DNA from: Candidatus Woesearchaeota archaeon
Lineage (GTDB): Archaea > Nanobdellota > Nanobdellia > Woesearchaeales > JACPBV01
NCBI GenBank assembly: GCA_019323195.1
Contig: JAHWHQ010000005.1
Coordinates: 1 to 20,965, forward strand
Direction of reading: 5' to 3'
Length of the DNA: 20,965 nucleotides
Every line of letters begins with the position of its first letter. The first letter of the stretch is position 1. This document shows, piece after piece, positions 5,406 to 18,296 of the stretch. Position numbers and translations under genes: made by a program. Below the pieces are notes generated by a model. The model was not told the DNA's origin. It was given only the letters and a program-made list of their open reading frames with translations, and searched no databases.

Positions 5406-5615
5406 ATGGCTATAGAGGTAGTATTAAAAAAATGGGGAAACTCGATTGGAGGAGTATTTCCAAAAGATTTTGTCAGAAAAAACAAACTTAGCGTAGATGA
5501 CACCATTTTTGTAGAGGTAGTCCGGAAGACAAACCTGACTAAGCTATTTGGAAGTTTACCGAGAAAAAAATCTGGGCAGCAGTTTAAGGATATGGTAAGG
5601 AAAGGATGGAAATAA
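5406..5615 (+). CDS. vapB: AbrB/MazE/SpoVT-fold antitoxin (VapB-like), 69 aa from the ATG at 5406
   Basis: VVLKKWGNSIGGVFPKDFVRKNKLSVDDTIFVEV is a typical SpoVT-AbrB swapped-hairpin motif. The SD aggtggtga sits directly upstream of the ATG at 5406; the track start 5397 is a GTG inside that SD. It overlaps the PIN gene by 10 nt. Confidence 0.8.
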   Translation: MAIEVVLKKWGNSIGGVFPKDFVRKNKLSVDDTIFVEVVRKTNLTKLFGSLPRKKSGQQFKDMVRKGWK

Positions 5616-5980
5616 AAAGCTATTTTTTCGACACTTATGCTTTTTTTGAAATAATCGAAGGGAATGAAAATTATAGGAAATACTCTAAAGACATCATCAT
5701 GATAACAACTAAACTAAACCTTATGGAACTGCATTACGGACTAATGGTGGAATATGGAAAAGAAATTGCTGATATTTATTATGATGTACTTGTCAGATTT
5801 GTTGCAGAAATTGATGACTGGACAATAAAAGAGGCAAATGTTTTTAGGTCTGAATATAATAAAAGGGACCTATCATATGTTGACTGCATTGGATATGTTA
5901 TAGCAAGGAGTAAAAATATAAGGTTCCTAACAGGGGATAAACAATTTGAAGATTTAGAGAATGTTGAGTTTGTTAAATAA
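5606..5980 (+). CDS. vapC: PIN-domain toxin (VapC-like), 124 aa
   Basis: The acidic quartet is at the expected spacing: FFDTYA (Asp9), LMELHYG (Glu), SYVDCIGY (Asp), TGDKQF (Asp). Size and the overlap with the upstream AbrB-type gene fit VapBC. Confidence 0.8.
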   Translation: MEIKSYFFDTYAFFEIIEGNENYRKYSKDIIMITTKLNLMELHYGLMVEYGKEIADIYYDVLVRFVAEIDDWTIKEANVFRSEYNKRDLSYVDCIGYVIARSKNIRFLTGDKQFEDLENVEFVK

Positions 5981-6003
5981 AAGAGGTGGTAGGGAGACAG
6001 ATA

Positions 6004-6690
6004 ATGGAACTCCCGCTGCACGAGCATCTGGATGAATTAAGGAAAAGGTTCATTATAGTCATCGTTTTCCTGTTCATTTTCTTTATTGTCGGTTTCTTAT
6101 TTTCAGGCTTTTTTATAAAAAAGATAATCCATGACCTGGTCTTTATAGAGAATGTCAGGATAATCGGCCTAACCCCTATCGAGTATTTTTTGACGCAGGT
6201 AAAGGTAGGGTTCCTTATATCCTTTATAATAACCCTCCCGATAATAATCTACCAGCTATTGGTCTTTATAAGCCCTGGCATGAACAGAAGAGAAAAGAAA
6301 AGTATTAAGCTGATACTGCCTTCATTTATCCTGCTGTTTTTGATAGGGGTTGTCTTCACCTATTTTATCTTCCTTCCTGTTGCAGTCTATTTCCTTGGAA
6401 ACCTGTCAAAAGGGATAATAGAGAACATATGGTCTATTGACGCCTTTATCAATTTCGTATTGCTGAGCTGCCTGTCTTTCGGCCTGATATTCCAGCTGCC
6501 CCTGCTCCTTATAACCCTGAACAGGATAGGCATAATAGATGCCAAAAGCTTAAGGACGTACAGGGCGCATACCTATGTCATTATATTTATATTATCCGCC
6601 GTAATAACCCCGCCTGATGCCATCACACAGCTGATAATCGCGCTTCCTCTGGTGATGTTGTATGAGGCAAGCTTATTGATCATAAGGTAA
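6004..6690 (+). CDS. tatC: twin-arginine translocase subunit TatC, 228 aa from the ATG at 6004 (track start 5986 is GTG)
   Basis: The N-terminal HLDELRKRFI motif is followed by six hydrophobic segments with the TatC pattern (ISPGM..REKK, LLFLIGVVFTYFIFLP, SAVITPPD). It starts 6-24 nt after the PIN stop. Confidence 0.85.
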   Translation: MELPLHEHLDELRKRFIIVIVFLFIFFIVGFLFSGFFIKKIIHDLVFIENVRIIGLTPIEYFLTQVKVGFLISFIITLPIIIYQLLVFISPGMNRREKKSIKLILPSFILLFLIGVVFTYFIFLPVAVYFLGNLSKGIIENIWSIDAFINFVLLSCLSFGLIFQLPLLLITLNRIGIIDAKSLRTYRAHTYVIIFILSAVITPPDAITQLIIALPLVMLYEASLLIIR

Positions 6691-6789: not shown

Positions 6790-7641
6790 ATGAGAATAAT
6801 AAAAAGAAAAAAAGGAAGGAAAGATTATTTCTATTTACAGCACTCTTTTAGAAAAGAGGGCAGGGTTATAACCAAAGAGATATATCTGGGCAAAAAAATT
6901 CCAGAAAACATTAGTAGAATTAAAGGAGAGATGATAATAGATGCCAAAAAAACCCTGTATGAAAAATTAAAAAAAATAAGGGATGATTTTCAAAAGGAAT
7001 GGAAAAGATACCCTGAAACAATCAGGAATAAAGAGAAAGAGGAGATAGCTATTGCTTTTACATATAATACAAACGCAATAGAAGGCTCAACTATTACATT
7101 AGAAGAGACCAGAGACATTATACATTATAAGACCTCCCCTGAAAAGCCTCTTAGGGATGTCAAGGAAACAGAAGCGCATTCAGGAGTATTCCTTGCAATG
7201 TTGGATAAAAAAGATAAGGTATCCAAAAAACTATTACTTGAATGGCATAGGGGCATTTTTGGAGAAACAAAGAAAGACATTGCAGGAAGATTCAGGGACT
7301 ATCTGGTGAGAGTTGGCAATTACAGGGCACCTGACTGGCAGGATGTTAAAAAACTTATGAATGAGCTAATTAATTTCATCAGTAAATCTAAGGATAATCC
7401 TGTTGAATTAGCAGCCAGGGCACATTATAAATTTGAGAAGATCCATCCTTTTGGTGATGGAAATGGAAGGATTGGAAGGCTTTTAACTAATTACATATTA
7501 TGGCATAACAAATACCCTATGATAGTAATAGAGTATAAGAAAAGAAGGTCTTATTATAAAGCCCTGGAAAGAGATGAGGAAGGGTTTGTTAACTATTTCC
7601 TAAGAAGATACCTTTCTGTCCATAAGAGAAGAGTAAAGTAA
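6790..7641 (+). CDS. Fic family protein (AMPylase type) with intramolecular inhibitory motif, 283 aa
   Basis: The Fic motif HPFGDGNGRIGR is canonical. The upstream TNAIEG matches the inhibitory-helix motif [ST]xxxE[GN], placing it in class II Fic. Confidence 0.9.
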   Translation: MRIIKRKKGRKDYFYLQHSFRKEGRVITKEIYLGKKIPENISRIKGEMIIDAKKTLYEKLKKIRDDFQKEWKRYPETIRNKEKEEIAIAFTYNTNAIEGSTITLEETRDIIHYKTSPEKPLRDVKETEAHSGVFLAMLDKKDKVSKKLLLEWHRGIFGETKKDIAGRFRDYLVRVGNYRAPDWQDVKKLMNELINFISKSKDNPVELAARAHYKFEKIHPFGDGNGRIGRLLTNYILWHNKYPMIVIEYKKRRSYYKALERDEEGFVNYFLRRYLSVHKRRVK

Positions 7642-7657: not shown

Positions 7658-9151
7658 TCACTCCTCAAACACAAAAGCCTGGTAGGTATAGACCTCTGTA
7701 GAGGTATCCTCCCAGCAGTCTGGCAACATCCCTCCCTTCCTGCACAAACTCAACAAAAACTCATCTTTCGCACCAAAATTAGCCCAAACCTGCGGAAGAT
7801 AGGTTGACTGCTTATAGCCCTGCTTAAGGACAACGCCGTCAACCATGGGCCTTAGCTTATCCAGCAGATCCTCACCTGAAGAGAACTCCAGCCTCTGAGG
7901 CACTGTCAGGACAGATATCTCAATGTTGATATCCTCCATCTCATCATAAACAACAGGCTCAAATCTCCTGTCATTTACAGCTGCGCTTACTGCATTGTCC
8001 ATGACGCACTTATAGAGCTCCTCCTGCGGCAGGATATGGCCTATGCAGCCTCTCAGGTTATGGTCCTTATTGAATGTCGTAAAACATCCTTTTACCTCCT
8101 TCAAAGCAGGTGTCAATTTTTCCTCATCTACCTCAGGCATTTTCCCTGTCTTAAGGTACTGCTCAGCTGTCTCCCTTGCAAGCCCTAAAAGAAATCCCTG
8201 ATCCTCTGCTGTTAATGGCTCATCATTATCCGAAGACCTGGCTGTTGATCCCTTATCCCCTTCACTGATAAATGCTATCGCAGAATATCCTACAACACTA
8301 TCCATATTCCCGCTAACATCACCAGAATTCGCATAATAAAGTATGTACGGCTTCCATCCATTTCTCTGCGCTATCTTAAGCAGGGTTGATACTGCAGAAG
8401 GCGCATCTATCTCAGCCTTAAATATCCCTTCAGAATCAAGGTTTAGAATCCTGTCAAGTGCATAATAATCAAGCTGTTTTGCCTCATCATAGCTATGGTA
8501 ATGCGACATGTCAACGCTTACGACAAGCAATGTACTATCATCGATATGCTTCCCAAGGATGTCTGCAAAAGCATCTGGCTCAACACTGCCGACAAGTACA
8601 GGAACAAGCTCAAAGTCACCTAAAGTCTGCTGAAGAAAAGGAAGCTCTATCTCAAGCGAATGCTCTTCTGCATGAGCCTCTGGCACATTATTTATCATCT
8701 CCTCTTTCAGAAGCCTTTTTGCTGTTTTAGACAGCTTAACCTCTCCAAGAGGTGTCTTGTAATGAGTAACATCCAGGATAGAGGCCCCTGATAAGGGATA
8801 ATGGTGTGAAGGGCCTAACAGAATAACCTTATCATGATCAGAATTAAGCTGCCTGAACGCAACAGCTGCCACCTGTCCTGAAAAGCTGTATCCTGCATGG
8901 GGGACAATAACAGCCCTGACAGTGCCATTAAAGTCAGCTTTCCTTACATTACCTAAGTAGGTGTCTACTGCTGCCTGTAGCGTTTCCATATCGCCAGGAT
9001 ACCATGATCCTGCCACTGCTGTATCCCTTACTTTCTTTTTCTGCAACGTAAAGTTATTTGTTGACTTGTATGTAAGGATTATAAGAAACAGTATTAAAAA
9101 AGCTGCAAATAGGTAAAGATGCTTTTTCTTTATTTTTATCCTGCTTTTCAT
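7658..9151 (-). CDS. fused AmmeMemoRadiSam system protein B (Memo-like, aa ~43-295) + protein A (AMMECR1, aa ~312-497) with N-terminal signal anchor, 497 aa
   Basis: Memo signature: AGSWYP, VPHAGYSFSG, SVDMSHYH, GYSAIAF. AMMECR1 signature: GCFTTFNKDHNLRGCIG, YLPQVW. The N-terminus is MKSRIKIKKKH followed by the 17-residue hydrophobic LYLFAAFLILFLIILTY. Confidence 0.9.
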   Translation of the reverse strand: MKSRIKIKKKHLYLFAAFLILFLIILTYKSTNNFTLQKKKVRDTAVAGSWYPGDMETLQAAVDTYLGNVRKADFNGTVRAVIVPHAGYSFSGQVAAVAFRQLNSDHDKVILLGPSHHYPLSGASILDVTHYKTPLGEVKLSKTAKRLLKEEMINNVPEAHAEEHSLEIELPFLQQTLGDFELVPVLVGSVEPDAFADILGKHIDDSTLLVVSVDMSHYHSYDEAKQLDYYALDRILNLDSEGIFKAEIDAPSAVSTLLKIAQRNGWKPYILYYANSGDVSGNMDSVVGYSAIAFISEGDKGSTARSSDNDEPLTAEDQGFLLGLARETAEQYLKTGKMPEVDEEKLTPALKEVKGCFTTFNKDHNLRGCIGHILPQEELYKCVMDNAVSAAVNDRRFEPVVYDEMEDINIEISVLTVPQRLEFSSGEDLLDKLRPMVDGVVLKQGYKQSTYLPQVWANFGAKDEFLLSLCRKGGMLPDCWEDTSTEVYTYQAFVFEE

Positions 9152-9291: not shown

Positions 9292-9591
9292 ATGGCAGCA
9301 ACTGTTACAACAAGGCTACCTAATGAACTAAATAGGGAGTTAAATAAGATATCAAAAATAGAGAATCTGGACAAATCAGCAGTAATGAGAAGATTGCTTG
9401 CTGATTCCATAAAGAGGTGGAATGAATACTATGCATTAGCCATGTATCAAAAAGGTATTTTCTCTACAGAGCAGGCAGCTGATTTTATAGGTGTTTCACT
9501 ATGGAGGTTTTCCGACATGTTAAATAAAAACAAGACACCAATAAGCTATGATGTAGAGGAGTTTGAAAAAGACCTGAAAAACATAAAATGA
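9292..9591 (+). CDS. antitoxin-like protein: N-terminal ribbon-helix-helix plus UPF0175-like C-terminal domain, 99 aa
   Basis: TTRLPNELNRELNKISKIENLDKSAVMRRLL is CopG/RHH-like. QKGIFSTEQAADFIGVSLWRFSDMLNKNKTPISYDVEEFEKDL resembles UPF0175. An ATGA overlap links it to the next gene. Confidence 0.7.
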   Translation: MAATVTTRLPNELNRELNKISKIENLDKSAVMRRLLADSIKRWNEYYALAMYQKGIFSTEQAADFIGVSLWRFSDMLNKNKTPISYDVEEFEKDLKNIK

Positions 9592-10076
9592 CTGTAAGCA
9601 ATTCTACTGTATTGATAAACCTGATTAAGATAGGCAAGGTAGATCTAATAAAAAATATTTATAAGAATATAACAATAACAGGCGTTATCAGAAAAGAGGT
9701 AACTAGAGAAGATGAATTATATAAAAATGAGATAAGGGTTTTTAATGAGTTAGCAGGGAGTTTTATCATAATAAAAAATCCGGCAAACTTGAAAGATTTT
9801 GGGCTTCATAAGGGAGAAAATTCATGTTTATCCCTATGCAAAGAGATAGATGATATAACCTTTCTATCAGATGATAAAAATGCAAGAAAAGCAGCAGACT
9901 TCCTGGGAATAAGAGTTATAGGAACTTTGGGAATATTAGTCTCAAATCTGAAGAAGAAAAAGCTCAATAAAAAAGAATTCTTTACCATATTAAGAAAACT
10001 GATTGACAAAGGTTTTTATATTTCCACTGAATTGTTTGCAGCTGTTGAGGAGTATGTGAATAAGATTATTCTTTAG
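9588..10076 (+). CDS. DUF3368 / PIN-like predicted nucleic-acid-binding toxin partner, 162 aa
   Basis: STVLINLIKIGKVDLIKNIY, HKGENSCLSLC, LSDDKNARKAA and GIRVIGTLGILV match the DUF3368 (COG2405) pattern, which is usually paired with UPF0175. Confidence 0.7.
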   Translation: MTVSNSTVLINLIKIGKVDLIKNIYKNITITGVIRKEVTREDELYKNEIRVFNELAGSFIIIKNPANLKDFGLHKGENSCLSLCKEIDDITFLSDDKNARKAADFLGIRVIGTLGILVSNLKKKKLNKKEFFTILRKLIDKGFYISTELFAAVEEYVNKIIL

Positions 10077-10088
10077 TTGTCTAACCAC

Positions 10089-11303
10089 TTACCACACGCC
10101 CGCAATACCTTCCCCGCAGAACTTACAGCTTCCACCCATTAAATTATTTTCTGTTATCACATAGCCGTTTCTTCCTACAACTGTCTTCCCGCACTTTGGG
10201 CAGTATGTGCTTACTGCCTTTGTCCCTGGAAGGTTTCCTATATAGACGAACTTAATCCCTTCCTCCATAGCAGTCTCCCTTGCCTGGTTCAGCACATCTG
10301 CCGGAGTCGGAGGAAGATGCGTAAGCTTATACTGCGGATGGAACCTTGAAAAATGAAGAGGGTAATCATCAAATCCGTTCTTATGCAGCCACACTGCCAT
10401 ATCCCTTATCATGTCAGGGTCATCTGTCCACGTAGGGACTATAAGGTTGGTGATCTCAAACCATATGCCCTCTTCCTTTGCTGTCTTAAGCGCATTTAAG
10501 ATGGGCTTAAGGGAGCCTGAATTAAGCTCATGGTATATCTCATCGCTAAATCCCTTAAGGTCTATATTGGCTGCGTCTATAACCCTGCACAACTCCCTTA
10601 AAGGCTTTTCATTTATATAGCCGTTAGTCACCCACACGTTTTTCAGTCCCTCCTTCTTTGCCAGCTTTGATGTATCATACATGTACTCATAAAAAGATGT
10701 AGGCTCTGAATAGGTATAGGCTACCGAAGGGCATTTATTCTCCAGGGCAGCCTTGACAACTGCCTCAGGCATCAGGTCATAGTTTTTTGTCTCTTCAGGC
10801 TGGAACTGCGATATGCTCCAGTTCTGGCAGTTCAGGCATCGTAATGTGCATCCTGCTGTCGCAATAGAAAAGATGGCAGTAGAGGGAAGGAAATGGAACA
10901 GCGGCTTTTTCTCTATAGGGTCGATATGCACAGCGCAGGGATTGCCGTAAGCCAGCGTGTATAATCTTCCCTGAATATTCACCTTATTCCTGCATATGCT
11001 TCTATCTCCTGGCTCAAGGCTGCATCTGTTAGGGCATACATTGCACTGCACATTATCCCCGGCTTTAGTGTAATGGTAAGCCTCCCTGCTCCATCTCCAC
11101 AATTCATCAGGGGCAGCTCCCTTAAATGTCCTGCTGAGGGAAGAGGGTTTTCTTCCAAATAGATAGCCATAACCATAAGCAGCTGTAGCAAGCCCTCCCA
11201 GGCCTATAAGGCTGTATTTGAGAAATTCCCGTCTTGAGATTTTTCTGTCAAAGAACCTTTCTGCAGGATTCTTCATCTTTTTTTCAGTTTTCTTCTCACC
11301 CAT
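10089..11303 (-). CDS. AmmeMemoRadiSam system radical SAM enzyme with N-terminal twin-arginine (Tat) signal, 404 aa
   Basis: The radical SAM cluster motif is CTLRCLNCQNW (Cx3Cx2C). An N-terminal Cys cluster (CNVCPNRC...C) and a C-terminal zinc ribbon (CPKCG...CKFCG) are typical of the PflA-like AmmeMemoRadiSam family. Residues 23-29 are S-R-R-E-F-L-K (nt 11217-11237), followed by the hydrophobic YSLIGLGGLATAAYG. Confidence 0.9.
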   Translation of the reverse strand: MGEKKTEKKMKNPAERFFDRKISRREFLKYSLIGLGGLATAAYGYGYLFGRKPSSLSRTFKGAAPDELWRWSREAYHYTKAGDNVQCNVCPNRCSLEPGDRSICRNKVNIQGRLYTLAYGNPCAVHIDPIEKKPLFHFLPSTAIFSIATAGCTLRCLNCQNWSISQFQPEETKNYDLMPEAVVKAALENKCPSVAYTYSEPTSFYEYMYDTSKLAKKEGLKNVWVTNGYINEKPLRELCRVIDAANIDLKGFSDEIYHELNSGSLKPILNALKTAKEEGIWFEITNLIVPTWTDDPDMIRDMAVWLHKNGFDDYPLHFSRFHPQYKLTHLPPTPADVLNQARETAMEEGIKFVYIGNLPGTKAVSTYCPKCGKTVVGRNGYVITENNLMGGSCKFCGEGIAGVW

Positions 11304-11330: not shown

Positions 11331-11960
11331 TTATTTACTGCCTGTCTTTTTAACAACCTTCAGCGCCAGATCACCTGCACACCCGACAGGGCATATATAA
11401 TTGCACCAAAACCGCGGAATAAAAAAAGACAGCAGGAATATTATTGAAGCTGCAGCAAAGGTAACAACAACAAACTGGTACCTGCCTATGAAAAAAGGAT
11501 TCTTAAACCTTTCATTAAAAAGGACCAATAAGACAAGGATAACTGTAAAAGATAAGAATAGATAGCTTACATAAATAAGCCAGCCTGGCAGCTTGAGCCT
11601 TTTTCTGCATACCTTTGCCTGGTAATCCTGCAAGGTCCCAGGAGGGCAGAGCCTATAGCACCAGGATCTTCTGTCAAGGTTCAACAGCAAAACAGACGGG
11701 ATAAGAAACGGCCTTAGCTCGCCAAAAGCGCATCTTCTGGGGCATGCCCTGCAGAATATGAAAGGCACCTTAAAATGGCATTTTATAAAAGGTATTGCCG
11801 CCACTGGGAAGAATATGGCAAGATAGATATTTTTTAACAGCTTATTATCCATCCAGTTCTTCCTGTACAGCTTAAGCAGGACAATTACAAAAGCAAAGAT
11901 TACAGATATATATACCAGGATAAAATAATCTTGGGTAAGGAACAGGTCAAACAACCTCAT
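11331..11960 (-). CDS. polytopic membrane 4Fe-4S-binding protein, NapH/MauN-like (Fer4_5-type CxxxCP motifs), 209 aa
   Basis: It has about 5 hydrophobic segments and 10 Cys, including FCRACPRRC, WCYRLCPPG and RFWCNYICPVGC. Its start codon overlaps the stop of the upstream zinc-ribbon ORF (ATGA). Confidence 0.8.
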   Translation of the reverse strand: MRLFDLFLTQDYFILVYISVIFAFVIVLLKLYRKNWMDNKLLKNIYLAIFFPVAAIPFIKCHFKVPFIFCRACPRRCAFGELRPFLIPSVLLLNLDRRSWCYRLCPPGTLQDYQAKVCRKRLKLPGWLIYVSYLFLSFTVILVLLVLFNERFKNPFFIGRYQFVVVTFAAASIIFLLSFFIPRFWCNYICPVGCAGDLALKVVKKTGSK

Positions 11961-12130
11961 TTTTTCCCTTTAGATATCTTCTTCAGCTTCTCTCTGATCT
12001 TTCCAAAGTCGATAGGGCTTATATCCGGCTTTTCTGCCTTGTCTACATCCTTGCTCAGGTCCTGCTTGCAGAAATCACAGTACCTCTCATGCTCTCTCAG
12101 CTCCCTTCCGCAGTAATGGCATTTTGTCAT
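11957..12130 (-). CDS. small zinc-ribbon protein, 57 aa (not in the ORF track)
   Basis: Hand translation gives MTKCHYCGRELREHERYCDFCKQDLSKDVDKAEKPDISPIDFGKIREKLKKISKGKK, with a CxxC-x10-CxxC motif. The ATG at 12130-12128 overlaps the TGA of the SdpI-like gene. Its TGA at 11959-11957 overlaps the ATG of the Fe-S membrane gene. Confidence 0.65.
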   Translation of the reverse strand: MTKCHYCGRELREHERYCDFCKQDLSKDVDKAEKPDISPIDFGKIREKLKKISKGKK

Positions 12131-12774
12131 TTTTTATCACCCTCTTTCTGGTATTGGACGTATGAATAGACAAATAAGATAACAATAACAGAGAGCAAAG
12201 GAGCTATAATAAACCAGACAAACTGTTCTGGGAAGAAGATGGAAGACAGCATCACCAAAGCAGAAAGCTTAAAGAGTTTTGACCCCAACCGATGTGTCTT
12301 GTTCCACACATCCTCACTGGCCAGTGTCCAGGGCGTCCTTATGCCTATAAAATAATTCCTTTTCGCGAATTTCAGCATATAGCCTATATAGAACAAGAAT
12401 ACAGATAACGAAGGGATCATGATATAAACCATATTTATGATAATCCGGAAATTTGGCAGAAGCATTGCGATGTATATTGCACTGAAAAAAAGGATAAAAA
12501 CAACCTTAAAGCCATAGAAATAGCCCTTAAATTTTTCAAAGTTCTCCTTGTAGACCATGATCTTAGGAAGGAATAAGAACAAAAGGTAAATTCCTGCAAG
12601 AAAAAGTGGTATCAAGAACAATCCGGCAAACCTGCCTCCATAACCGTCTATCTCTCCAGCAGAATTCCAGTGGACCGGCATCCTTTCCGGCATTTTTGGG
12701 TACAGGTACACCGATGCAGCAAAGATCAGGATTATGAATATGATCAGGGGGAGTTCTTTCTTGTCAATTTCCAT
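12127..12774 (-). CDS. DUF1648 + SdpI-family integral membrane protein, 215 aa
   Basis: MPVHWNSAGEIDGYGGRFAG is the DUF1648 signature. NYFIGIRTPWTLASEDVWNKTHRLGSKLF is the SdpI/YfhL signature. There are about 6 hydrophobic segments. Confidence 0.8.
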   Translation of the reverse strand: MEIDKKELPLIIFIILIFAASVYLYPKMPERMPVHWNSAGEIDGYGGRFAGLFLIPLFLAGIYLLFLFLPKIMVYKENFEKFKGYFYGFKVVFILFFSAIYIAMLLPNFRIIINMVYIMIPSLSVFLFYIGYMLKFAKRNYFIGIRTPWTLASEDVWNKTHRLGSKLFKLSALVMLSSIFFPEQFVWFIIAPLLSVIVILFVYSYVQYQKEGDKK

Positions 12775-12842: not shown

Positions 12843-15800
12843 TTATCTGCCCTTTTTCTTCATAACCAGATAGATAACCAACAGGCAGATTAAGACCACT
12901 GCCAGGACAGCAAATAAGGCAGTAAATACCAGGTTATATTGCTCTACCTGTGAAGGTGCAAGCGCTTCAGGTATCTCTCCTCTTTCAGCCTCTAAGCCAA
13001 TCTGCTCATATTCAGGAGCTCCCTGCTTTACCCAGACGCTGCCGTCCCATTTCCAGTTAACCCCGTCATTGTTCCTTATCTCTCCTACAGACCTTCCCGC
13101 CTCTGCAGGAGGCTGTGGGGAATAAGCGCAGCTCTGCCTTGTAGTTGGCTTGTATTTAACAGTTCCGCAGTTCTTGTAATCCCTGCATATCCTGGTCATC
13201 TGTCCATCCTTGCTGCATTCGCTCCATGATGTGCATACCCAGTTTTCCTTGCACTCTGTAGATACCGGCACCCCTTCAGTTGTATCAGAATAGCCGACAC
13301 AGTCAGGGTCAGCAGGATAATCTATCAGGCCGTCGCCGTCATTGTCGATGCCGTCCTTGCACTGGGCAACAGTATTGCCGCCGCCTCCGCCGCCTCCGCC
13401 GCCGCTTGTAGTCCCGCTGCTTGGAGCCGGCGCTCCGTCGCCCCAGCTGCTGAACTCGCAGTTAGGGACTGTCCATTCACTTACGTCAGTACTGTTATGG
13501 TAGCCTATCTTGCTTGACTCATTAGTCCTGTTCTTGCATGTCAAGGAATCACTTTCATCCCCGCAGTGCCATAGTTCAGTGTTATTGCCAGGGATGTAGA
13601 CCCTGCACTCCTCAGGCCTCAACTTATCCCTTATGTCGTCAAACTTATCCTTCTCTGCTTTGACAAAATCAGCTGTTCCTCCGCCAGCCTTGTTTACAGT
13701 TGACTTCTCGAAATCGCCTTCATCAACTGTCCTGGAGTTCCCTGCCAGCGTCCTTGGAGTTACATTGACCAGCTTTATCCCTGCATTCGTCGTATTATCG
13801 ACAAACTCTATGTCCAGGGTCTCATTATACCACACCAGCAGTCCGGCAGCCTTGCCGCAGTCCAGGCAGCCCTGTGTATAATTCTGGCCTTCATGGTTCA
13901 TGTTTACATTCCATCCTTCAGGGATATCGTCAAACCTCACTACCATCCTGCAGTCAGGGCAGTCCTTCCTGCTGGATGTCTTGGCAGTTGTAAAATTCAG
14001 CGTCCTGCTCTTTGCTGTATTGTTGGACTTATCCGTCATCTGTACCTTGTAAAAATAGGTCGTTCCGTTGGCAAACTTATAGTTAACCCCGCCTGTAATG
14101 TTCCTTACATCAATAGAATGCCTCTTGTCAACAGTATTGTCAGTCACGTTAATAGCAGTTGTCAGATTGCATCTGCTGTTGTTTCCGCAGAATATCACTG
14201 TTATATTGGTTGACTCATCAGTATCTATGGCGATATGCCCTCCGTCAGGGTATTCATCGATCTCTTTGTGCACCAGCTTAGGTGCTGTAGTATCCTCAAC
14301 CCCTTCCCATGTACTTAAGCAGAACCAAAAATCCTTGCAGTCACTATCCTCGCAGTTGGTCAGGCCGTCACCATCCTCATCCCCTGATCCTTGGAAGCAG
14401 TCTTCTATCATGAAGAACCCGTATTTCTGGAAGCCTCCGCAGTCAGGGTCGTCCTTTGCCTTTGACCCGTCTCCATCCATATCGCACTCAGGGCACATGC
14501 AGTCCTCAAACCTAAAGTCAAACTGGTTAGGGGAATAGTAGCTAGGGCCTGCATAATCCAGAGGGCTGTTATAGTCTCTTGAGCCGTTCGCTGCAGCCAC
14601 CATGACCCTCATATCCTCAGTAGGGTCGTATAATGCGGTGAAAGTATTGAGGTCGCTCTTCTGTATGCTTATCATACCCCCTCCTACCATGTCACATACA
14701 GCCTTTTTCCAGCTTGACAGCATGATCTCTGCAGCTGTCCAGTTGCCGTTCTGGCACCTGTATGCCACCCTGGTTTCCTTCAGCTCGCCGCTGGACATGA
14801 CGCCCACATAGTTCAGCCTGAACTCAAAACCAGGATAAGAGCTGTCATTTATCGCATTGCAGCCGCCGGTTGCATCCCCGTCTGTATCAAGGTACCAGTA
14901 AAACCTTGTTGTCTTGGTTCCTGTTGTAGGCACTAGTAATGGATTATCCCATGATGTTCTTGTACTTTCCCCGTTGCATATGGCAGCATCCTTAATAGAG
15001 TGTACTGAGATGCCAAGCCCCCAGTTGTCAGGTTCGTCCTTTGTCCCGAACGACCTTATGTCAGAGTAGTGGGCAATACTGGAATTCCGGCCATCAAAGC
15101 CCAAAGATGTCGGCGGCTGGGACATCATATCCCCCTGAAACATCATACCCATCATCTTGCCTTCACACCAGCCGCTTCTCATCATGCATCCGGGCTCATT
15201 AGTGCAGGCAGTTGAATCACCGCTCAATGACGAGTTAAAGCATTTGGGTTTGCAGTAGCCCGCATTATCCCATGAGCAGAAGCTGTTTCCGGCTGTGCAT
15301 AGTGCTGCGCTGCTCTGCCTTGATGAGTTCATATTGCACTCCCATGCCTTGTAGTCACACCAGCTGTTTCCTGTCGGGTCTGTCCACCAGGAGCAGTTGC
15401 CTTCTGCCTGGCAGGAAGTCTGGTTCTTATCCTTGCAGTAATTGGAAGTATCCACGTCACAGAACTGCCCCTGCTCTTCCATCCACATGCAGCTGCTTTG
15501 GTTATTGCATTGTGTCTGGTCATTTTCAAATTTCCAGCAGTCATCCATCATGACTACGCCCATTCCACCTCCACCTACTCCTCCAGGCATGCATATGCCC
15601 GCACTCCATTGGCAGGAGTCCTTACCCAAGCATTGGCTTTGGGTCAGGGATGAATTGAAGCAGTGCGGCCTGCAGGCATAGCTCTGCATCCACTCATCAT
15701 AGTTCCATACGCAATAATCCAGCTGAGCGCATGCTGTCTCATTCCTGCTAAAACAGGTGTCTACCTTTAAGGAGCAGAAGCTTTCTATGCGCCATTCGCA

Positions 15801-18296
15801 GTCAGCATTAGCTTCACATCCGCTCCTGTCAAAATCATACATCATGCAGTTGGTAGACAGGGTATAATTCTTCCTGTTGCAAAACCCGCTGCTTGTCCAT
15901 GAGCAACTCGCGTTATTAGGGGCAGTAGTGCAGGATACGTTATTCAGGCCGTTGCATATGCTAAACTGGCTCTGGTTCATATCGCACATCCCTCCTGTAG
16001 GGGGAATATCCCACTGGCATCCTTCTGTGTTAGTGCAGCCGTTCTGATCATCGGCATACATCCAGCAGTTTCCTCCTATCATCTCGCACCATTCCCCGTC
16101 GCTGTTGTTAACCCACGCGCACATAGGGTCCGGATTGCATGTATTATTATCTTCATACATGCCGCAATTGCTCATAAAACTCCCTCCGCAGAAATCCCCG
16201 CCGAAGCATTTGGAATCCCCGCAGTCGATATAGCCGTCGCCGTCATTATCCTCCCCGTCATAACACAGCTCTGTAGAGCCTCCGCTGGTTCCCTCCTCGA
16301 CGCACATCCCGTTGCTCCATGTGCAGTTCTTTCCAGAGCCTAGCCCGCCCTTGTCCCTGCATGAGGTGTCTGTAAAGCATTCCCCGCAGTCTTCAGTGCA
16401 GCCCTCCTTGTTCTGGGAATCGCACCATCCCTTGCTTGAATCATCAGGGTCAGCAAACCATGTGCAGTTGGCAGCGCTGTTCTTGCATGCAGTCATGGCC
16501 TCATTTACAGTCTTTCCCATATAAGTACAGACAGAGCATTTAGTATTGCAGTCGCCGCCCCCTGATTTCTTATATTCCTGCTTCTCCACGCATAGGCCTA
16601 TCCCGTTAGGCGCATAGGTGTCTGCCTTGAACGTGCAGTAGCCAAGCGGAGAATCCTCGCAGGATGATTTGGCGTTAGCTGATGTGACATTCTTTCCGCT
16701 GGCATCCCTGAACTCGCATGCCCAGCATACCTCTTTGCATGACTTGGCTCCGGCCCCAACCTTGGGCTCGCACCATCCAAAAGGCACTGTCTGGTTTCCG
16801 TTGCAGTAATACTCGACAACCCATGATCCTCCGGTATCCTCGCATTGTTTCTTGTTGGTTATCTCCTTCACATCATTAATATTCTCCTTTTCCATAAGCC
16901 TGTCATAGCACTTGCTGCTGGAATTATCCCATGCGCATGGCATGTACCATGGGTCTCCTGCTATCTTCCGGCATTTTGAAGGGCTGTCAAGGACATTATA
17001 ATCAACGCAGTAATGCGCTCCATCCCCGGGATCCTCAATATTATCCCAGCACTTTTTTGACATAGGCGCCTTATTGCAGCTGCTTCCGTTCCATGAGCAG
17101 CACCCTCCTAAAAAAGGAACCTCCTTGCAGAACGTATTATTGACTATATCAGTGCACCTTATCCCATTGACAATATTGGAGTTATTGCTGGCATTCTCCT
17201 GGCAGGCAGCAGCGCTGGCATTATAAAAGCATCCCCTTACCTGGTTGCATCGTGTTGAGTTGTAATCCATGATCCAGCATCCTGTCTTCATAAAATCCTG
17301 GTCCATGTCAAAATCATTGAAGCCGATCTGTATCGGATCCCTGCATGTACTGTCAGATTTATTATAGATGCAATAATAGGTGTCCATGCATCCTTTCTCA
17401 TTATTATTATACATAGTGCAGCCTGCGCTCATATCCTCCTCGCAGTAGGGATCATGATAGGTGCAGTTCAGGCCATAAAGGGTTCCGTTACCCACACAAG
17501 CATCCTGGCCTTCCCCATACCAGTTCCAGCATCCTACCTCCTCGCACCATCCGTAATTCTCCATGTAATTCCATTCACAGTTATCCTTCAGCTGGCATGT
17601 AGTCTTGTCCATTATGTTCCAGCATCCTTCCTGGTTGCACCATGGGTCATTATAGGTGCAGCTGAGGTTATAGGCATTATTCTGGCATGCAGATGAGTTT
17701 GTATAATCCCATATCCAGCAGTTGATCTCCTCGCAGTATTGGTATTGTGAATTCCAATTGCAGTTTAAGGTAGTTGCTCCTGTGCATTCCCCGGGAGTAT
17801 TGAAGTTCCAGCAGCCCTTTTCATAGCAGAAATTCCCGGAGCTGTCCCACTGGCAGGCATTCCCCTTATAGTCTGTCGCTGAGGTGCAGCCTGAAGAGGT
17901 GGTCTGGTCCCAGCAGCCGGGCTTATAGCAGTATGAATAGTCTGAGTTCCAGCTGCATCCCAAATCAGTGGAATGGGCCTGGCATGATGACTGGTTATAA
18001 TAAAGCCAGCATCCTTTCTCGCTGCACCACCCGTCATTAGTCCCTCCTCCTGTCTTCCATGTGCAGCTCATGTTAGAGTCAGCAGCAGCATTGCAGTCAG
18101 TCTCATCCCAAAAATTCCAGCAGCCCAGCTGGTTGCACCAGCCTCCACCATCCGCCCATGTATCTGCCATCCATGTGCATATAGAGGACTGCGCCTCGCA
18201 GCCTGTCTGGTTTCCGTCATACTGCCAGCATTCAAAACCCGCACCGAAAACAAAAGAAACGCCCAAGACAAGAATCAACCCTACCAACCCAATCAA
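12843..18296 (-). CDS. giant secreted, C-terminally membrane-anchored Cys/Trp-rich repeat surface protein, 1817 aa
   Basis: The N-terminus IGLVGLILVLGVSFVFGA is hydrophobic and signal-like. Residues ~21-1045 are tandem ~31-37-aa 4-Cys modules. Then come a Met-rich linker, a low-Cys beta-rich region, Cys-flanked DxDxDG acidic loops, an FN3-like segment (aa ~1338-1438), Gly9, a WSxC/TSP1-like Cys knot, a TM segment (aa 1788-1811) and a KKKGR tail. My hand count gives about 146 Cys and about 50 N-x-[ST] sequons. The start codon is TTG (see findings). Confidence 0.9.
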   Translation of the reverse strand: MIGLVGLILVLGVSFVFGAGFECWQYDGNQTGCEAQSSICTWMADTWADGGGWCNQLGCWNFWDETDCNAAADSNMSCTWKTGGGTNDGWCSEKGCWLYYNQSSCQAHSTDLGCSWNSDYSYCYKPGCWDQTTSSGCTSATDYKGNACQWDSSGNFCYEKGCWNFNTPGECTGATTLNCNWNSQYQYCEEINCWIWDYTNSSACQNNAYNLSCTYNDPWCNQEGCWNIMDKTTCQLKDNCEWNYMENYGWCEEVGCWNWYGEGQDACVGNGTLYGLNCTYHDPYCEEDMSAGCTMYNNNEKGCMDTYYCIYNKSDSTCRDPIQIGFNDFDMDQDFMKTGCWIMDYNSTRCNQVRGCFYNASAAACQENASNNSNIVNGIRCTDIVNNTFCKEVPFLGGCCSWNGSSCNKAPMSKKCWDNIEDPGDGAHYCVDYNVLDSPSKCRKIAGDPWYMPCAWDNSSSKCYDRLMEKENINDVKEITNKKQCEDTGGSWVVEYYCNGNQTVPFGWCEPKVGAGAKSCKEVCWACEFRDASGKNVTSANAKSSCEDSPLGYCTFKADTYAPNGIGLCVEKQEYKKSGGGDCNTKCSVCTYMGKTVNEAMTACKNSAANCTWFADPDDSSKGWCDSQNKEGCTEDCGECFTDTSCRDKGGLGSGKNCTWSNGMCVEEGTSGGSTELCYDGEDNDGDGYIDCGDSKCFGGDFCGGSFMSNCGMYEDNNTCNPDPMCAWVNNSDGEWCEMIGGNCWMYADDQNGCTNTEGCQWDIPPTGGMCDMNQSQFSICNGLNNVSCTTAPNNASCSWTSSGFCNRKNYTLSTNCMMYDFDRSGCEANADCEWRIESFCSLKVDTCFSRNETACAQLDYCVWNYDEWMQSYACRPHCFNSSLTQSQCLGKDSCQWSAGICMPGGVGGGGMGVVMMDDCWKFENDQTQCNNQSSCMWMEEQGQFCDVDTSNYCKDKNQTSCQAEGNCSWWTDPTGNSWCDYKAWECNMNSSRQSSAALCTAGNSFCSWDNAGYCKPKCFNSSLSGDSTACTNEPGCMMRSGWCEGKMMGMMFQGDMMSQPPTSLGFDGRNSSIAHYSDIRSFGTKDEPDNWGLGISVHSIKDAAICNGESTRTSWDNPLLVPTTGTKTTRFYWYLDTDGDATGGCNAINDSSYPGFEFRLNYVGVMSSGELKETRVAYRCQNGNWTAAEIMLSSWKKAVCDMVGGGMISIQKSDLNTFTALYDPTEDMRVMVAAANGSRDYNSPLDYAGPSYYSPNQFDFRFEDCMCPECDMDGDGSKAKDDPDCGGFQKYGFFMIEDCFQGSGDEDGDGLTNCEDSDCKDFWFCLSTWEGVEDTTAPKLVHKEIDEYPDGGHIAIDTDESTNITVIFCGNNSRCNLTTAINVTDNTVDKRHSIDVRNITGGVNYKFANGTTYFYKVQMTDKSNNTAKSRTLNFTTAKTSSRKDCPDCRMVVRFDDIPEGWNVNMNHEGQNYTQGCLDCGKAAGLLVWYNETLDIEFVDNTTNAGIKLVNVTPRTLAGNSRTVDEGDFEKSTVNKAGGGTADFVKAEKDKFDDIRDKLRPEECRVYIPGNNTELWHCGDESDSLTCKNRTNESSKIGYHNSTDVSEWTVPNCEFSSWGDGAPAPSSGTTSGGGGGGGGGNTVAQCKDGIDNDGDGLIDYPADPDCVGYSDTTEGVPVSTECKENWVCTSWSECSKDGQMTRICRDYKNCGTVKYKPTTRQSCAYSPQPPAEAGRSVGEIRNNDGVNWKWDGSVWVKQGAPEYEQIGLEAERGEIPEALAPSQVEQYNLVFTALFAVLAVVLICLLVIYLVMKKKGR
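13377..13403 (-). repeat. (GGC/GGA)9 trinucleotide tract encoding Gly9
   Basis: The plus strand reads gccgccgcctccgccgcctccgccgcc. It encodes G1632-G1640 of the giant protein. Confidence 0.9.
17427..18236 (-). repeat. eight consecutive clean copies of the coding tandem repeat C-W-x(7-9)-C-x(5-10)-C-x-[WY]-x(4-10)-C-x4
   Basis: C-W pairs fall at aa 23, 59, 96, 128, 162, 193, 225 and 256, a spacing of 31-37 aa. On the plus strand this appears as a recurring CCAGCA(N)CC, the reverse of GGN-TGC-TGG, every ~93-111 nt. Degenerate copies continue to about aa 1045 (nt ~15162). Confidence 0.85.

What the first reader, a model, noticed from the sequence alone, without database searches (positions are those of the whole stretch)
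10089..11303. Radical SAM enzyme with a textbook twin-arginine signal, 5 kb from the tatA/tatC genes
Residues 23-29 read S-R-R-E-F-L-K (nt 11217-11237). This matches the Tat consensus [ST]-R-R-x-F-L-K exactly. A hydrophobic stretch and an A-T-A-A site follow. The mature part is a complete Cx3Cx2C radical SAM enzyme with extra Cys clusters. Fe-S proteins are classic Tat cargo, but radical SAM chemistry needs SAM and a low-potential reductant. An exported or outward-anchored radical SAM enzyme would therefore be mechanistically unusual. The same window encodes the Tat machinery. I cannot tell from memory how common Tat signals are in this family.
Basis: partly seen in the sequence, partly recalled or inferred. 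Interest (0 to 1): 0.7.

Follow-up and report, generated by a model that had tools for sequence, protein, structure and literature searches.

The report
Exported radical SAM enzyme system
A radical SAM enzyme of the AmmeMemoRadiSam family carries a deeply conserved twin-arginine export signal and sits in a conserved gene set (Tat translocase, secreted Memo-AMMECR1 partner, a 14-helix membrane protein with an outward-facing SAM-type domain, a membrane iron-sulfur protein), which implies that this normally cytoplasmic chemistry takes place on the outer face of the membrane in many archaea and bacteria.

Summary
ORF 10089-11303(-) is an AmmeMemoRadiSam radical SAM enzyme (TIGR04337, 356 bits against a cutoff of 220). 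Residues 23-29 read S-R-R-E-F-L-K. A weakly hydrophobic stretch and basic residues follow.

The signal is not chance. 110 of the 120 closest homologues keep RR at this position. Codon comparisons show the N-terminus is translated.

The signal marks a distinct clade found in DPANN and other archaea and in Bacteroidota, Desulfobacterota, Verrucomicrobiota and Omnitrophota. This clade has its own gene context:
- The Memo-AMMECR1 fusion partner carries a Sec, lipoprotein or anchor signal in 38 of 38 loci.
- A roughly 720-residue membrane protein lies nearby in 104 of 113 loci, against 3 of 13 for signal-less enzymes. It has 7+7 helices, and its spermidine-synthase-like domain is predicted to face outward.
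- tatA and tatC lie next to the cluster in most archaeal loci. In ten loci tatC is directly adjacent on the same strand.
- In this lineage a NapH-like Fer4_5 membrane Fe-S gene sits directly upstream.

Elsewhere the enzyme is fused to extracytosolic electron-transfer modules: FMN_bind, Fer4_5 and DsbD_2.

Best reading: a Tat-exported, probably membrane-tethered radical SAM system. A candidate electron supply is visible. The SAM supply is unresolved. No experiment exists, and I found no literature on it.

The parts
10089..11303 (-). AmmeMemoRadiSam-system radical SAM enzyme, 404 aa, with an N-terminal extension of about 68 aa ahead of the family core
   Evidence: TIGR04337 scores 356.2 bits (cutoff 220), and the model starts at residue 76. 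Pfam Radical_SAM scores 75.7 bits. The closest solved structure is PFL-activating enzyme.
11217..11237 (-). Twin-arginine motif S-R-R-E-F-L-K (aa 23-29)
   Evidence: R25 is invariant in the 22-sequence alignment, and RR is kept in 110 of the 120 best homologues. TIGR01409 scores 18.3 bits against 16.7.
11145..11216 (-). h-region (aa 30-49) plus basic c-region (aa 50-53); A-T-A-A at aa 40-43
   Evidence: AF2 predicts one helix over aa 24-48, then a low-confidence linker at aa 50-59. Across homologues the h-region hydropathy is 1.70+-0.25, and 91% have a basic residue after it.
10935..11045 (-). N-terminal auxiliary cysteine set C87, C90, C94, C104, C123
   Evidence: All five are invariant in alignment A1.
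10827..10850 (-). Radical SAM cluster motif C152-x3-C156-x2-C159
   Evidence: invariant.
10116..10202 (-). C-terminal CxxC...CxxC (C368, C371, C393, C396), a zinc-ribbon or rubredoxin-like site
   Evidence: C368, C393 and C396 are invariant; C371 is 90% or more conserved.
11331..11960 (-). NapH-like membrane Fe-S protein (Fer4_5), 209 aa, 27 nt upstream of the enzyme on the same strand; candidate transmembrane electron donor
   Evidence: PF12801 scores 43.8 bits. The same adjacency occurs in L086, L087, L089, L091, L093 and L100. Fusions FMN_bind+Fer4_5+Radical_SAM (P0141, P0143, P0132) and Spm+Fer4_5 (P0334, P0337, P0338, P0364) exist.
7658..9151 (-). Memo + AMMECR1 fusion (system proteins B + A), 497 aa, with an N-terminal signal anchor (aa ~12-28)
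   Evidence: TIGR04336 scores 233 bits and TIGR04335 scores 187 bits. An N-terminal hydrophobic segment is present here and in 38 of 38 loci with a Tat-like enzyme.
1806..3965 (+). 14-helix membrane protein with a central spermidine-synthase-like (AdoMet-fold) domain, 719 aa, named 'fused MFS/spermidine synthase' by NCBI
   Evidence: PF01564 scores 82 bits; NF037959 scores 78.9 bits against a cutoff of 40. The AF2 model has pLDDT 90.2 and shows 7 TM helices, a soluble domain and 7 more TM helices. Positive-inside counts over 45 homologues are 16.6 against 4.8, which puts the soluble domain outside. The gene is linked to Tat-like enzymes in 104 of 113 loci.
5166..5333 (+). tatA
   Evidence: PF02416 scores 61.6 bits; TIGR01411 scores 66.2 bits.
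5986..6690 (+). tatC
   Evidence: TIGR00945 scores 183 bits; PF00902 scores 199.8 bits. tatC lies within 10 kb of the Tat-like enzyme in 24 loci.
12127..12774 (-). SdpI/DUF1648 membrane protein upstream of Fer4_5; membership of the system is doubtful
   Evidence: PF13630 and PF07853 match. The same position is occupied only in L086/L088.

Best explanation
The N-terminus is a functional twin-arginine signal. The [4Fe-4S]-loaded, folded radical SAM enzyme is handed to the TatAC translocase encoded nearby and moved to the outer face of the cytoplasmic membrane. There it most likely stays tethered by its uncleaved or weakly cleavable signal helix.

It would work outside together with three partners:
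- The Memo-AMMECR1 fusion, which has its own Sec-type anchor or lipoprotein signal.
- A 14-helix membrane protein whose spermidine-synthase-like, AdoMet-type domain also faces outward.
- In this lineage, the NapH-like Fer4_5 membrane Fe-S protein encoded directly upstream. It is the candidate route for bringing low-potential electrons across the membrane.

The target is probably an envelope component, either a lipid or isoprenoid or a surface glycan.

What the sequence comparisons show: the signal's anatomy and conservation, its linkage to tat genes, the signals on the partner proteins, and the fusions to extracytosolic redox modules.

What is inferred: actual export, tethering, electron flow through Fer4_5, and above all how SAM reaches the enzyme. 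Three untested options exist for SAM. It could pass through or be presented by the 14-helix protein. It could be carried out bound to the enzyme and used catalytically. Or a different cosubstrate could be used.
For: (1) The motif matches the Tat consensus exactly. The N-terminal 62 aa pass TIGR01409.

(2) RR is kept in 110 of the 120 closest homologues; another 8 have KR, RK or RM. Bacteroidota use S-K-R-E-F-[IL]-K. Synonymous differences exceed nonsynonymous ones in these codons.

(3) The h-region is much less hydrophobic than the Sec-type signals of the partner protein in the same loci: 1.70+-0.25 against 3.00+-0.41, Mann-Whitney U = 1, p = 1e-26. In 91% of cases a basic residue follows it. 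By established knowledge these are the features that separate Tat signals from Sec signals.

(4) tatA and tatC lie within about 6 kb in the window and in L001, L004, L005, L006, L054, L086, L087, L089, L090, L093 and L094. tatC lies 0-54 bp from the enzyme on the same strand in 10 further loci. It was found next to none of 11 signal-less enzymes.

(5) The partner Memo-AMMECR1 has a signal, lipobox or anchor in 38 of 38 Tat-like loci.

(6) The Spm membrane protein accompanies 104 of 113 Tat-like enzymes but only 3 of 13 enzymes without an extension (Fisher p = 1e-7). Its soluble domain is predicted to be outside.

(7) Natural fusions place the enzyme after an N-terminal anchor and an FMN_bind domain with the flavinylation motif D-x-V-S-G-A-T, with no helix in between (P0127, P0135). 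Other fusions place it after FMN_bind+Fer4_5 (P0141, P0143), DsbD_2 (P0125, P0126, P0132), CBM_11 (P0131) or a PorZ-like propeller (P0123). Meheust et al. 2021 (PMC8238504) describe FMN_bind, NapH-like and DsbD modules as extracytosolic electron-transfer systems.

(8) The exported-type sequences cluster in the core-domain tree: one clade of 40 is 90% such forms, and a clade of 84 is 99% other forms.

(9) Residues I equate, from memory of the PFL-AE structure, with its AdoMet contacts stay invariant in this clade: Cx3Cx2C, Y-T-Y-S-E-P, T-N-G, D248/K250 and H317.
Against: There is no experimental evidence of export for any member.

I ran no trained predictor; my 'Tat-like' class is a regular expression plus a hydropathy threshold. 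Pfam's TAT_signal model scores 16.3 bits, below its 22.7 cutoff.

No source of SAM and no Fe-S repair machinery is known outside the cytoplasm. An archaeon without an outer membrane would lose soluble cosubstrates.

Some relatives have lipoprotein-type or Sec-type N-termini without RR. These include Omnitrophota L078, L080 and L081 with L-T-A-C or L-I-A-C, and the fusions P0123 and P0131. This is hard to reconcile with export of a folded Fe-S enzyme.

About six loci pair a signal-less enzyme with a signal-bearing Memo-AMMECR1: L060, L061, L075, L076, L082 and L084. Co-localisation of the three domains is therefore not obligatory.

Fer4_5 is adjacent only in the window's sublineage (8 of 158 loci). 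Positive-inside reasoning puts its own Cys-rich loops on the cytoplasmic side.

The A-x-A site is not conserved.

The loci were retrieved with a Tat-type query, so the proportions are biased towards that type.
Confidence: 0.7

Rival explanations
1. The chemistry happens before export. The enzyme uses cytoplasmic SAM and reductant, on itself, on a bound small molecule or on a partner. It is then exported by Tat as a carrier, or as a structural or redox (non-SAM) Fe-S protein. No radical SAM turnover would occur outside.
For: Tat exports folded proteins with their ligands bound (established knowledge). No SAM source is known outside. The closest solved relative, PFL-activating enzyme, acts once on a protein partner. 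About six loci have a cytoplasmic enzyme with a secreted Memo-AMMECR1, so the SAM-dependent step can apparently take place inside.
Against: The partners Memo-AMMECR1 carry Sec-type signals and would fold only outside. Fusions to FMN_bind, Fer4_5 and DsbD_2 electron modules imply continuing electron delivery to the exported domain. The linked Spm protein places a second AdoMet-type pocket outside. A stoichiometric single-use enzyme would be costly.
Confidence: 0.15
2. The N-terminal helix is only a membrane tether. It inserts so that the catalytic domain stays in the cytoplasm next to the membrane proteins, and the RR motif is simply part of a positively charged flank.
For: The h-region is about 20 residues long, enough to span a membrane, and AF2 models it as one helix. 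Basic residues lie on both sides of it. Some relatives have hydrophobic N-termini without RR. This topology would remove the SAM and reductant problem.
Against: The n-region carries about 10 K/R in 29 residues, so it should stay inside. With one helix the domain is then outside. A charge flank would not need the full S/T-R-R-x-F-L/I-K pattern, yet that pattern is conserved across phyla. tatC is operonic with the gene in 10 loci and nearby in 14 more. The FMN_bind-enzyme fusions without an intervening helix place the domain with an extracytosolic module. The partner proteins carry export signals.
Confidence: 0.1
3. The motif is an artefact: a chance match upstream of the true start codon.
For: An in-frame TTG at codon 68 would start the protein exactly at the family core (read from the sequence).
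Against: The chance expectation is 8e-5. The motif is conserved in more than 100 homologues. Synonymous differences exceed nonsynonymous ones in the N-terminal codons. NCBI's annotation starts at Met10.
Confidence: 0.01

Closest known systems
Cytoplasmic AmmeMemoRadiSam system (NCBIfam TIGR04335 / TIGR04336 / TIGR04337; function unknown)
   Same: The same three domains occur in one neighbourhood, and all three models score above their cutoffs. The same Cys motifs are present.
   Different: Here the radical SAM enzyme has a twin-arginine signal and the Memo-AMMECR1 fusion has an anchor or signal. A 14-helix spermidine-synthase-like membrane protein is added, and tatAC and Fer4_5 are linked. Signal-less members lack all of these.
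Tat-exported Fe-S proteins, including signal-anchored ones such as Rieske proteins (established knowledge)
   Same: An RR consensus, a weakly hydrophobic h-region, a basic c-region, an Fe-S cargo and possibly an uncleaved signal that acts as an anchor.
   Different: The known cargoes are electron carriers or respiratory subunits. None that I know of, or could find, is a radical SAM enzyme needing a nucleoside cosubstrate.
Pyruvate formate-lyase activating enzyme (PDB 3cb8, 8fo0)
   Same: It is the closest solved structure and sequence: Foldseek E = 2e-12 with TM 0.72-0.76 on the target, and phmmer 48 bits.
   Different: PFL-AE is cytoplasmic, is about 245 aa, and lacks the N-terminal Cys set, the C-terminal CxxC...CxxC and any signal. 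All the glycyl-radical activase models score far below their cutoffs.
NapH/NosR/PceC-type and DsbD-type extracytosolic electron-transfer modules (Meheust et al. 2021, PMC8238504)
   Same: A Fer4_5 (PF12801) membrane protein is encoded next to the enzyme. FMN_bind+Fer4_5 and DsbD_2 modules are fused to it in relatives.
   Different: That survey does not mention radical SAM, Memo or AMMECR1. The window's Fer4_5 protein is a 209-aa minimal form without an FMN_bind domain or a C-terminal ferredoxin domain.
Polyamine aminopropyltransferases (SpeE; PDB 1uir, 3o4f, 1inl)
   Same: The soluble domain of the 719-aa partner matches the whole SpeE fold (Foldseek E = 5e-12, TM about 0.7 on the target). It keeps the ribose-binding Glu, the adenine-binding Asp and the D-x-x-D-P acidic motif.
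   Different: The domain is inserted between two 7-helix membrane blocks and is predicted to face outward. The Asp of G-G-G-D-G, which to my knowledge selects decarboxylated SAM, is replaced (S-G-G-V-S-G). The equivalog models score below their cutoffs.

Membership tests
Twin-arginine (Tat) signal peptide | n-region consensus [ST]-R-R-x-F-L-K | tested here: met
   S-R-R-E-F-L-K at aa 23-29; conserved in homologues.
Twin-arginine (Tat) signal peptide | Curated profile match | tested here: inconclusive
   TIGR01409 scores 18.3 bits against a cutoff of 16.7, a pass. Pfam PF10518 scores 16.3 bits against 22.7, a fail.
Twin-arginine (Tat) signal peptide | Weakly hydrophobic h-region followed by a basic (Sec-avoidance) c-region | tested here: met
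   The best 12-residue hydropathy is 1.55 here and 1.70+-0.25 in 114 relatives. The Sec-type signals of the partner score 3.00+-0.41. A basic residue follows the h-region in 91% of cases. The selection thresholds differ (>1.2 against >2.0), so the contrast is somewhat inflated.
Twin-arginine (Tat) signal peptide | A-x-A signal peptidase site | tested here: inconclusive
   A-T-A-A is present at aa 40-43 but is not conserved in the alignment. An uncleaved anchor is equally possible.
Twin-arginine (Tat) signal peptide | Tat translocase present in the organism | tested here: met
   tatA 5166..5333 and tatC 5986..6690.
Twin-arginine (Tat) signal peptide | Tat-dependent, RR-dependent export shown experimentally | not testable with these tools
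   Needs reporter fusions in wild-type and tatC-mutant hosts.
AmmeMemoRadiSam system | Radical SAM component matches TIGR04337 above its cutoff | tested here: met
   356.2 bits against 220.
AmmeMemoRadiSam system | AMMECR1-type protein A and Memo-type protein B encoded nearby | tested here: met
   The fusion at 7658..9151(-) scores 187.1 bits on TIGR04335 (cutoff 99) and 233 bits on TIGR04336 (cutoff 26). It lies 0.9 kb downstream, with a toxin-antitoxin pair inserted in between.
Radical SAM superfamily | Cx3Cx2C cluster motif and AdoMet-binding motifs | tested here: met
   C152/C156/C159 are present, and PF04055 scores 75.7 bits. Y-T-Y-S-E-P, T-N-G, D248/K250 and H317 are invariant. Equating these with PFL-AE's SAM contacts rests on my memory of the 3cb8 structure.
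Radical SAM superfamily | Reductive cleavage of SAM to a 5'-deoxyadenosyl radical | not testable with these tools
   Needs anaerobic enzymology.
Glycyl-radical enzyme activases | Match to activase equivalog models above their cutoffs | tested here: not met
   TIGR02493 scores 58 bits against 231.75, and TIGR02494 scores 32.6 bits against 174.35. The resemblance is in fold only.
NapH-like extracytosolic electron-transfer proteins (PF12801) | Polytopic membrane protein with Cx3CP-type Fe-S motifs | tested here: met
   The protein at 11331..11960(-) scores 43.8 bits on PF12801 (cutoff 22). It has about 4 hydrophobic segments and the motifs CRACPRRC, CYRLCP and CNYICP. TIGR02163 (NapH/MauN) scores only 17 bits against 213, so it is not NapH itself.
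Polyamine aminopropyltransferase (SpeE) | Match to equivalog models; G-G-G-D-G dcSAM motif | tested here: not met
   TIGR00417 scores 84.8 bits against 249.55, and NF002956 scores 228.7 bits against 472. The motif Asp is replaced. The fold is the same. The subfamily model NF037959 'fused MFS/spermidine synthase' is met, at 78.9 bits against 40.

The most novel reading that the evidence does not exclude
Radical SAM chemistry is carried out outside the cytoplasm by a widespread clade of enzymes in archaea and bacteria. Electrons would cross the membrane through NapH-like, FMN or DsbD-type modules. SAM, or a related adenosyl-sulfonium compound, would be delivered to the outer face by the co-inherited 14-helix spermidine-synthase-like protein. 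The likely purpose is to modify an envelope lipid or glycan. If so, this would be the first extracytoplasmic radical SAM pathway and the first evidence for a SAM-type cosubstrate beyond the membrane. In genome-reduced DPANN archaea it may also be the main reason the Tat system is kept.
Probability: 0.35. Interest if true: 0.9.

Novelty: new variant of a known kind. Interest (0 to 1): 0.72.

Why it matters
Radical SAM enzymes are treated as strictly cytoplasmic because they need SAM and a low-potential electron donor. A large, phylogenetically coherent clade with export signals challenges that assumption. So do its partners that also carry export signals, and its natural fusions to extracytosolic electron-transfer modules.

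The finding offers a concrete place to look for SAM or electron delivery across the membrane.

It gives the long-enigmatic Memo and AMMECR1 families, both linked to human disease, a new testable context at the cell envelope.

It adds a fourth conserved component, so far annotated only as 'fused MFS/spermidine synthase'.

It suggests a dedicated cargo for the Tat system in genome-reduced DPANN archaea.

Tried and rejected
- Literature. Ten full-text searches found only passing mentions of AmmeMemoRadiSam. They found nothing on exported, periplasmic or Tat-signal radical SAM enzymes. The most relevant paper is Burroughs et al. 2019, J Biol Chem 294:10211, which from memory extends Memo gene contexts towards 'nucleotide base and aliphatic isoprenoid modification'. 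It is not held, so it may already describe parts of this context.
- Chance or start-codon artefact: rejected.
- Fer4_5 as a universal component: rejected. It is adjacent in only 8 of 158 loci, although fusions exist elsewhere.
- An Spm-enzyme fusion as a topology test. The 1055-aa candidate P0132 turned out to be DsbD_2+FMN_bind+Fer4_5+Radical_SAM instead.
- An eight-helix model for the first membrane block of Spm: rejected, because it reverses the K/R bias of every later loop and AF2 shows 7+7 helices.
- A solved structure of the family: none exists, only PFL-AE.
- A structural match for the membrane part of Spm: the top 50 Foldseek matches were all soluble SpeE enzymes.
- The small 2-TM proteins upstream of the enzyme in L001 and L005: only weak sub-threshold hits to cytochrome b561 and DUF4405. 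Not pursued.
- Whole-genome count of RR proteins in the source organism: not possible, because only a 21-kb contig is available.
Full report
**What is there**

The window is essentially a 20,967-nt contig of a Candidatus Woesearchaeota archaeon. The ORF's product from Met10 is identical to an NCBI protein named 'AmmeMemoRadiSam system radical SAM enzyme'.

ORF 10089..11303(-) encodes 404 aa. It scores 356 bits on TIGR04337 (cutoff 220). The model begins only at residue 76, so about 70 N-terminal residues are extra.

After them come:
- a Gly/Ala/Thr-rich stretch, YSLIGLGGLATAAYGYGYLF;
- an A-T-A-A site inside that stretch;
- the basic residues G-R-K-P.

The Cx3Cx2C motif is C152/C156/C159. An N-terminal five-Cys set and a C-terminal CxxC...CxxC are conserved.

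tatA (5166..5333) and tatC (5986..6690) are real.

**Is it more than chance, and is it translated?**

The strict motif is expected 8e-5 times in a protein of this size. It occurs once in all six-frame ORFs of the window. No other window ORF combines RR with a following hydrophobic stretch.

Of the 120 best homologues (57-100% identity), 110 keep RR at the equivalent place. Eight have KR, RK or RM, and two are truncated. The taxa include Woesearchaeota, Nanoarchaeota, Aenigmarchaeota, Altiarchaeota, Theionarchaea and Methanofastidiosia. R25 is invariant in a 22-sequence alignment.

An in-frame TTG at codon 68 could in principle start the protein at the family core. However, over the 32 codons around the motif, synonymous differences from close relatives outnumber nonsynonymous ones. 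Examples are 12 to 4, 15 to 7 and 15 to 8. The stretch is therefore under protein-level selection.

The N-terminal 62 aa pass NCBI's TAT_signal_seq model, at 18.3 bits against 16.7. They miss Pfam's TAT_signal cutoff, at 16.3 bits against 22.7.

AF2 models aa 24-48 as a single helix. A low-confidence linker and then the globular domain follow.

**How common is it in the family?**

I searched the core domain alone against 1.84 billion representatives. That gave 7,407 hits with E-value up to 0.001. Among the best 150:
- 89 have no N-terminal extension. Eighteen of these are long proteins of 500-1150 aa with long C-terminal extensions that I did not annotate.
- 29 have a short extension with RR/KR plus a hydrophobic stretch.
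- 5 have a hydrophobic N-terminus without RR.
- About 16 have long N-terminal fusions.

A rough neighbour-joining tree of the core domains puts the extension-bearing and membrane-fused forms together. One clade of 40 is 90% such forms, and a clade of 84 is 99% other forms. The signal therefore marks a coherent subfamily.

A scan of GTDB genomes shows this subfamily widely in Bacteria: Bacteroidales, Ignavibacteriota, Desulfobacterales, Verrucomicrobiota and Omnitrophota. Bacteroidota use S-K-R-E-F-[IL]-K.

**The surroundings tell the same story**

I compared the window's proteins with six-frame ORFs of 158 non-redundant related loci. The 'Tat-like' class is my own heuristic: [RK]R-type motif followed by a 12-residue hydropathy above 1.2.

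1. The Memo-AMMECR1 fusion (window 7658..9151) has an N-terminal signal anchor, lipobox or signal peptide in all 38 Tat-like loci where its start could be read. It lacks one in about half of the loci whose enzyme has no extension.

2. A roughly 720-aa membrane protein with a Spermine_synth domain lies in the locus of 104 of 113 Tat-like enzymes. It accompanies only 3 of 13 enzymes without an extension (Fisher p = 1e-7). In the window it is at 1806..3965, and NCBI names it 'fused MFS/spermidine synthase'. In bacteria the usual order is Memo-AMMECR1, this protein, then the enzyme.

3. tatC lies within 10 kb of 24 Tat-like enzymes and of none of 11 signal-less ones. This covers nearly all the archaeal loci: the window, L001, L004, L005, L006, L054, L086, L087, L089, L090, L093 and L094. 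In ten further loci tatC sits 0-54 bp upstream on the same strand, followed by the enzyme and the membrane protein.

4. The gene directly upstream of the enzyme (11331..11960) is a 209-aa Fer4_5 (PF12801) membrane Fe-S protein. The same adjacency is kept in the window's closest relatives (L086, L087, L089, L091, L093, L100) but not elsewhere.

**Signal type**

The enzyme's h-regions score 1.70+-0.25 on a 12-residue hydropathy measure (n = 114). The partner protein's signals in the same loci score 3.00+-0.41 (n = 58). The two distributions barely overlap. In 91% of the enzymes a basic residue follows the h-region.

By established knowledge, low h-region hydrophobicity and a basic c-region are what distinguish Tat signals from Sec signals. 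The two selection thresholds differ, so the contrast is somewhat inflated.

**Fusions**

Among the representatives are the following fusion architectures:
- DsbD_2+FMN_bind+Fer4_5+Radical_SAM (P0132);
- FMN_bind+Fer4_5+Radical_SAM (P0141, P0143);
- DsbD_2+Radical_SAM (P0125, P0126);
- anchor+FMN_bind+Radical_SAM (P0127, P0135);
- CBM_11+Radical_SAM (P0131);
- a PorZ-like propeller+Radical_SAM (P0123);
- anchor+Radical_SAM+Memo+AMMECR1 (P0138).

In P0127 and P0135 the FMN_bind domain carries the flavinylation motif D-x-V-S-G-A-T. No hydrophobic helix separates it from the radical SAM core. The two domains must therefore share a compartment.

Meheust et al. 2021 describe FMN_bind, NapH-like (PF12801) and DsbD modules as extracytosolic electron-transfer systems whose partner reactions are mostly unknown. 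They do not mention radical SAM, Memo or AMMECR1.

The 720-aa membrane protein is itself fused to a C-terminal Fer4_5 module in P0334, P0337, P0338 and P0364.

**The membrane partner**

AF2 with 38 sequences gives a confident model (pLDDT 90.2, pTM 0.88). It shows seven transmembrane helices, a soluble domain (aa 236-481) and seven more helices.

Over 45 homologues, K+R counts in the loops on the N-terminal side sum to 16.6. On the side of the soluble domain they sum to 4.8. By the positive-inside rule both termini are cytoplasmic and the soluble domain faces outward.

That domain matches the whole fold of polyamine aminopropyltransferases.
- It keeps V-E-L-D, the ribose-binding acid.
- It keeps K-D-G, the adenine-binding Asp.
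- It keeps D-L-P-D-P, the catalytic acids.
- It replaces G-G-G-D-G with S-G-G-V-S-G. To my knowledge that Asp selects decarboxylated SAM.

A second AdoMet-type pocket is therefore predicted on the outside.

**Mechanism proposed**

Shown by sequence comparison:
- a conserved Tat-type signal;
- tat linkage;
- export signals on the partners;
- fusion to extracytosolic redox modules.

Inferred:
- TatAC moves the folded Fe-S enzyme across the membrane.
- The long h-region, together with the lack of a conserved A-x-A site, keeps it tethered.
- Electrons arrive through Fer4_5 in this lineage, or through FMN/DsbD modules elsewhere.
- Memo, AMMECR1 and the outward aminopropyltransferase-like domain act with it on an envelope substrate.

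The CBM_11 and propeller fusions hint at a glycan. Memo's reported link to isoprenoid modification (Burroughs 2019, from memory) hints at a lipid.

The SAM supply is unexplained. The strict co-inheritance of the 14-helix protein with the exported form makes it the best candidate for delivering or presenting SAM. Carrying SAM out bound to the enzyme and using it catalytically is an alternative. Both ideas are speculation.

**What does not fit**

- Omnitrophota enzymes have lipobox-type N-termini without RR (L078, L080, L081). P0123 and P0131 have Sec-like anchors. A folded Fe-S enzyme should not travel by the Sec route.
- About six loci combine a signal-less enzyme with a signal-bearing Memo-AMMECR1.
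- L157 has a signal-less enzyme next to a membrane-protein gene cut by the contig end.
- The Cys-rich loops of the window's Fer4_5 protein are K/R-rich and probably cytoplasmic. How electrons would cross the membrane is therefore unclear.
- The loci were retrieved with a Tat-type query, so the frequencies are biased.

**Comparison with what is known, and novelty**

The protein is a member of the AmmeMemoRadiSam radical SAM family, and all tested defining features are met. The family's function is unknown.

The closest solved structure is PFL-activating enzyme, but the protein is not an activase by the curated models.

I found no paper that discusses an exported radical SAM enzyme or this gene context. 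The one paper most likely to touch on it could not be read.

I therefore rate it a new variant of a known kind. The evidence is bioinformatic, strong and consistent, and wholly untested at the bench.

Noticed in passing
window 12843..18296 (-): A 1817-aa Cys- and Trp-rich protein with an N-terminal signal-like segment and a C-terminal transmembrane helix. Its only family match is NF033662 'acidic double-disulfide repeat' (46.9 bits against a cutoff of 41, near aa 1642-1669). It is probably a giant surface protein. It lies just upstream of the SdpI, Fer4_5 and radical SAM genes on the same strand. Whether it relates to the system is unknown.
   Followed up: partly
window 5397..5980, 6790..7641, 9292..10076, 39..440: Toxin-antitoxin-type genes are interspersed in the cluster. 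These are an AbrB-like antidote plus a PIN protein, a Fic protein, a UPF0175 protein plus a DUF3368 protein, and a Fic/Doc fragment. The UPF0175/DUF3368 pair sits on the opposite strand between the radical SAM gene and Memo-AMMECR1. In relatives those two genes are adjacent or overlapping.
   Followed up: partly
L140 5835..17537 (and L142, L147-L149, L151, L153, L156, L158, L166): In these loci tatC, the radical SAM gene and the Spm gene appear to form one co-directional operon, with no Memo or AMMECR1 within 10 kb. In L140 the flanking genes are ThiF, an IscS-like aminotransferase, cysteine-synthase-like PALP enzymes, DUF362, an Rrf2 regulator and a serine-acetyltransferase-like protein. This suggests the enzyme and Spm can work without Memo-AMMECR1.
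   Followed up: partly
L078, L080, L081, L085, L077 (Omnitrophota and others); proteins P0123, P0131: These radical SAM homologues have lipobox-like (L-T-A-C, L-I-A-C) or Sec-like hydrophobic N-termini and no twin arginine. Some are fused to CBM_11 or a PorZ-like propeller. Export of a folded Fe-S enzyme without Tat is unexplained.
   Followed up: partly
L060, L061, L075, L076, L082, L084: A mixed arrangement: the radical SAM enzyme has no N-terminal extension, but the neighbouring Memo-AMMECR1 has a signal peptide or lipobox, and no Spm gene is present.
   Followed up: no
L087 10276..14275: In one Woesearchaeota relative, three genes are inserted between the radical SAM gene and Memo-AMMECR1. 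They are an MFS transporter, a 4'-phosphopantetheinyl transferase (ACPS) and an AMP-binding/PP-binding/acyltransferase protein. This is a lipid-acylation-type set.
   Followed up: no
L001 6668..6948 and L005 7751..7996: Small homologous 2-TM proteins (81-93 aa) lie directly upstream of the radical SAM gene, where the window has Fer4_5. They give only weak, sub-threshold hits to cytochrome b561 and DUF4405. They could be an alternative membrane redox partner.
   Followed up: partly
L007-L020 and other Bacteroidota loci: Bacteroidota homologues consistently carry S-K-R-E-F-[IL]-K (Lys-Arg) instead of Arg-Arg in an otherwise Tat-like signal.
   Followed up: no
L157 2709..2894: A short ORF between the signal-less radical SAM gene and Memo-AMMECR1 encodes M-R-R-R-I-F-L plus a hydrophobic stretch and then 'AMFWKKVD'. 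This resembles the signal and first core residues of the enzyme family. It may be a remnant of a second copy or of a rearrangement.
   Followed up: no
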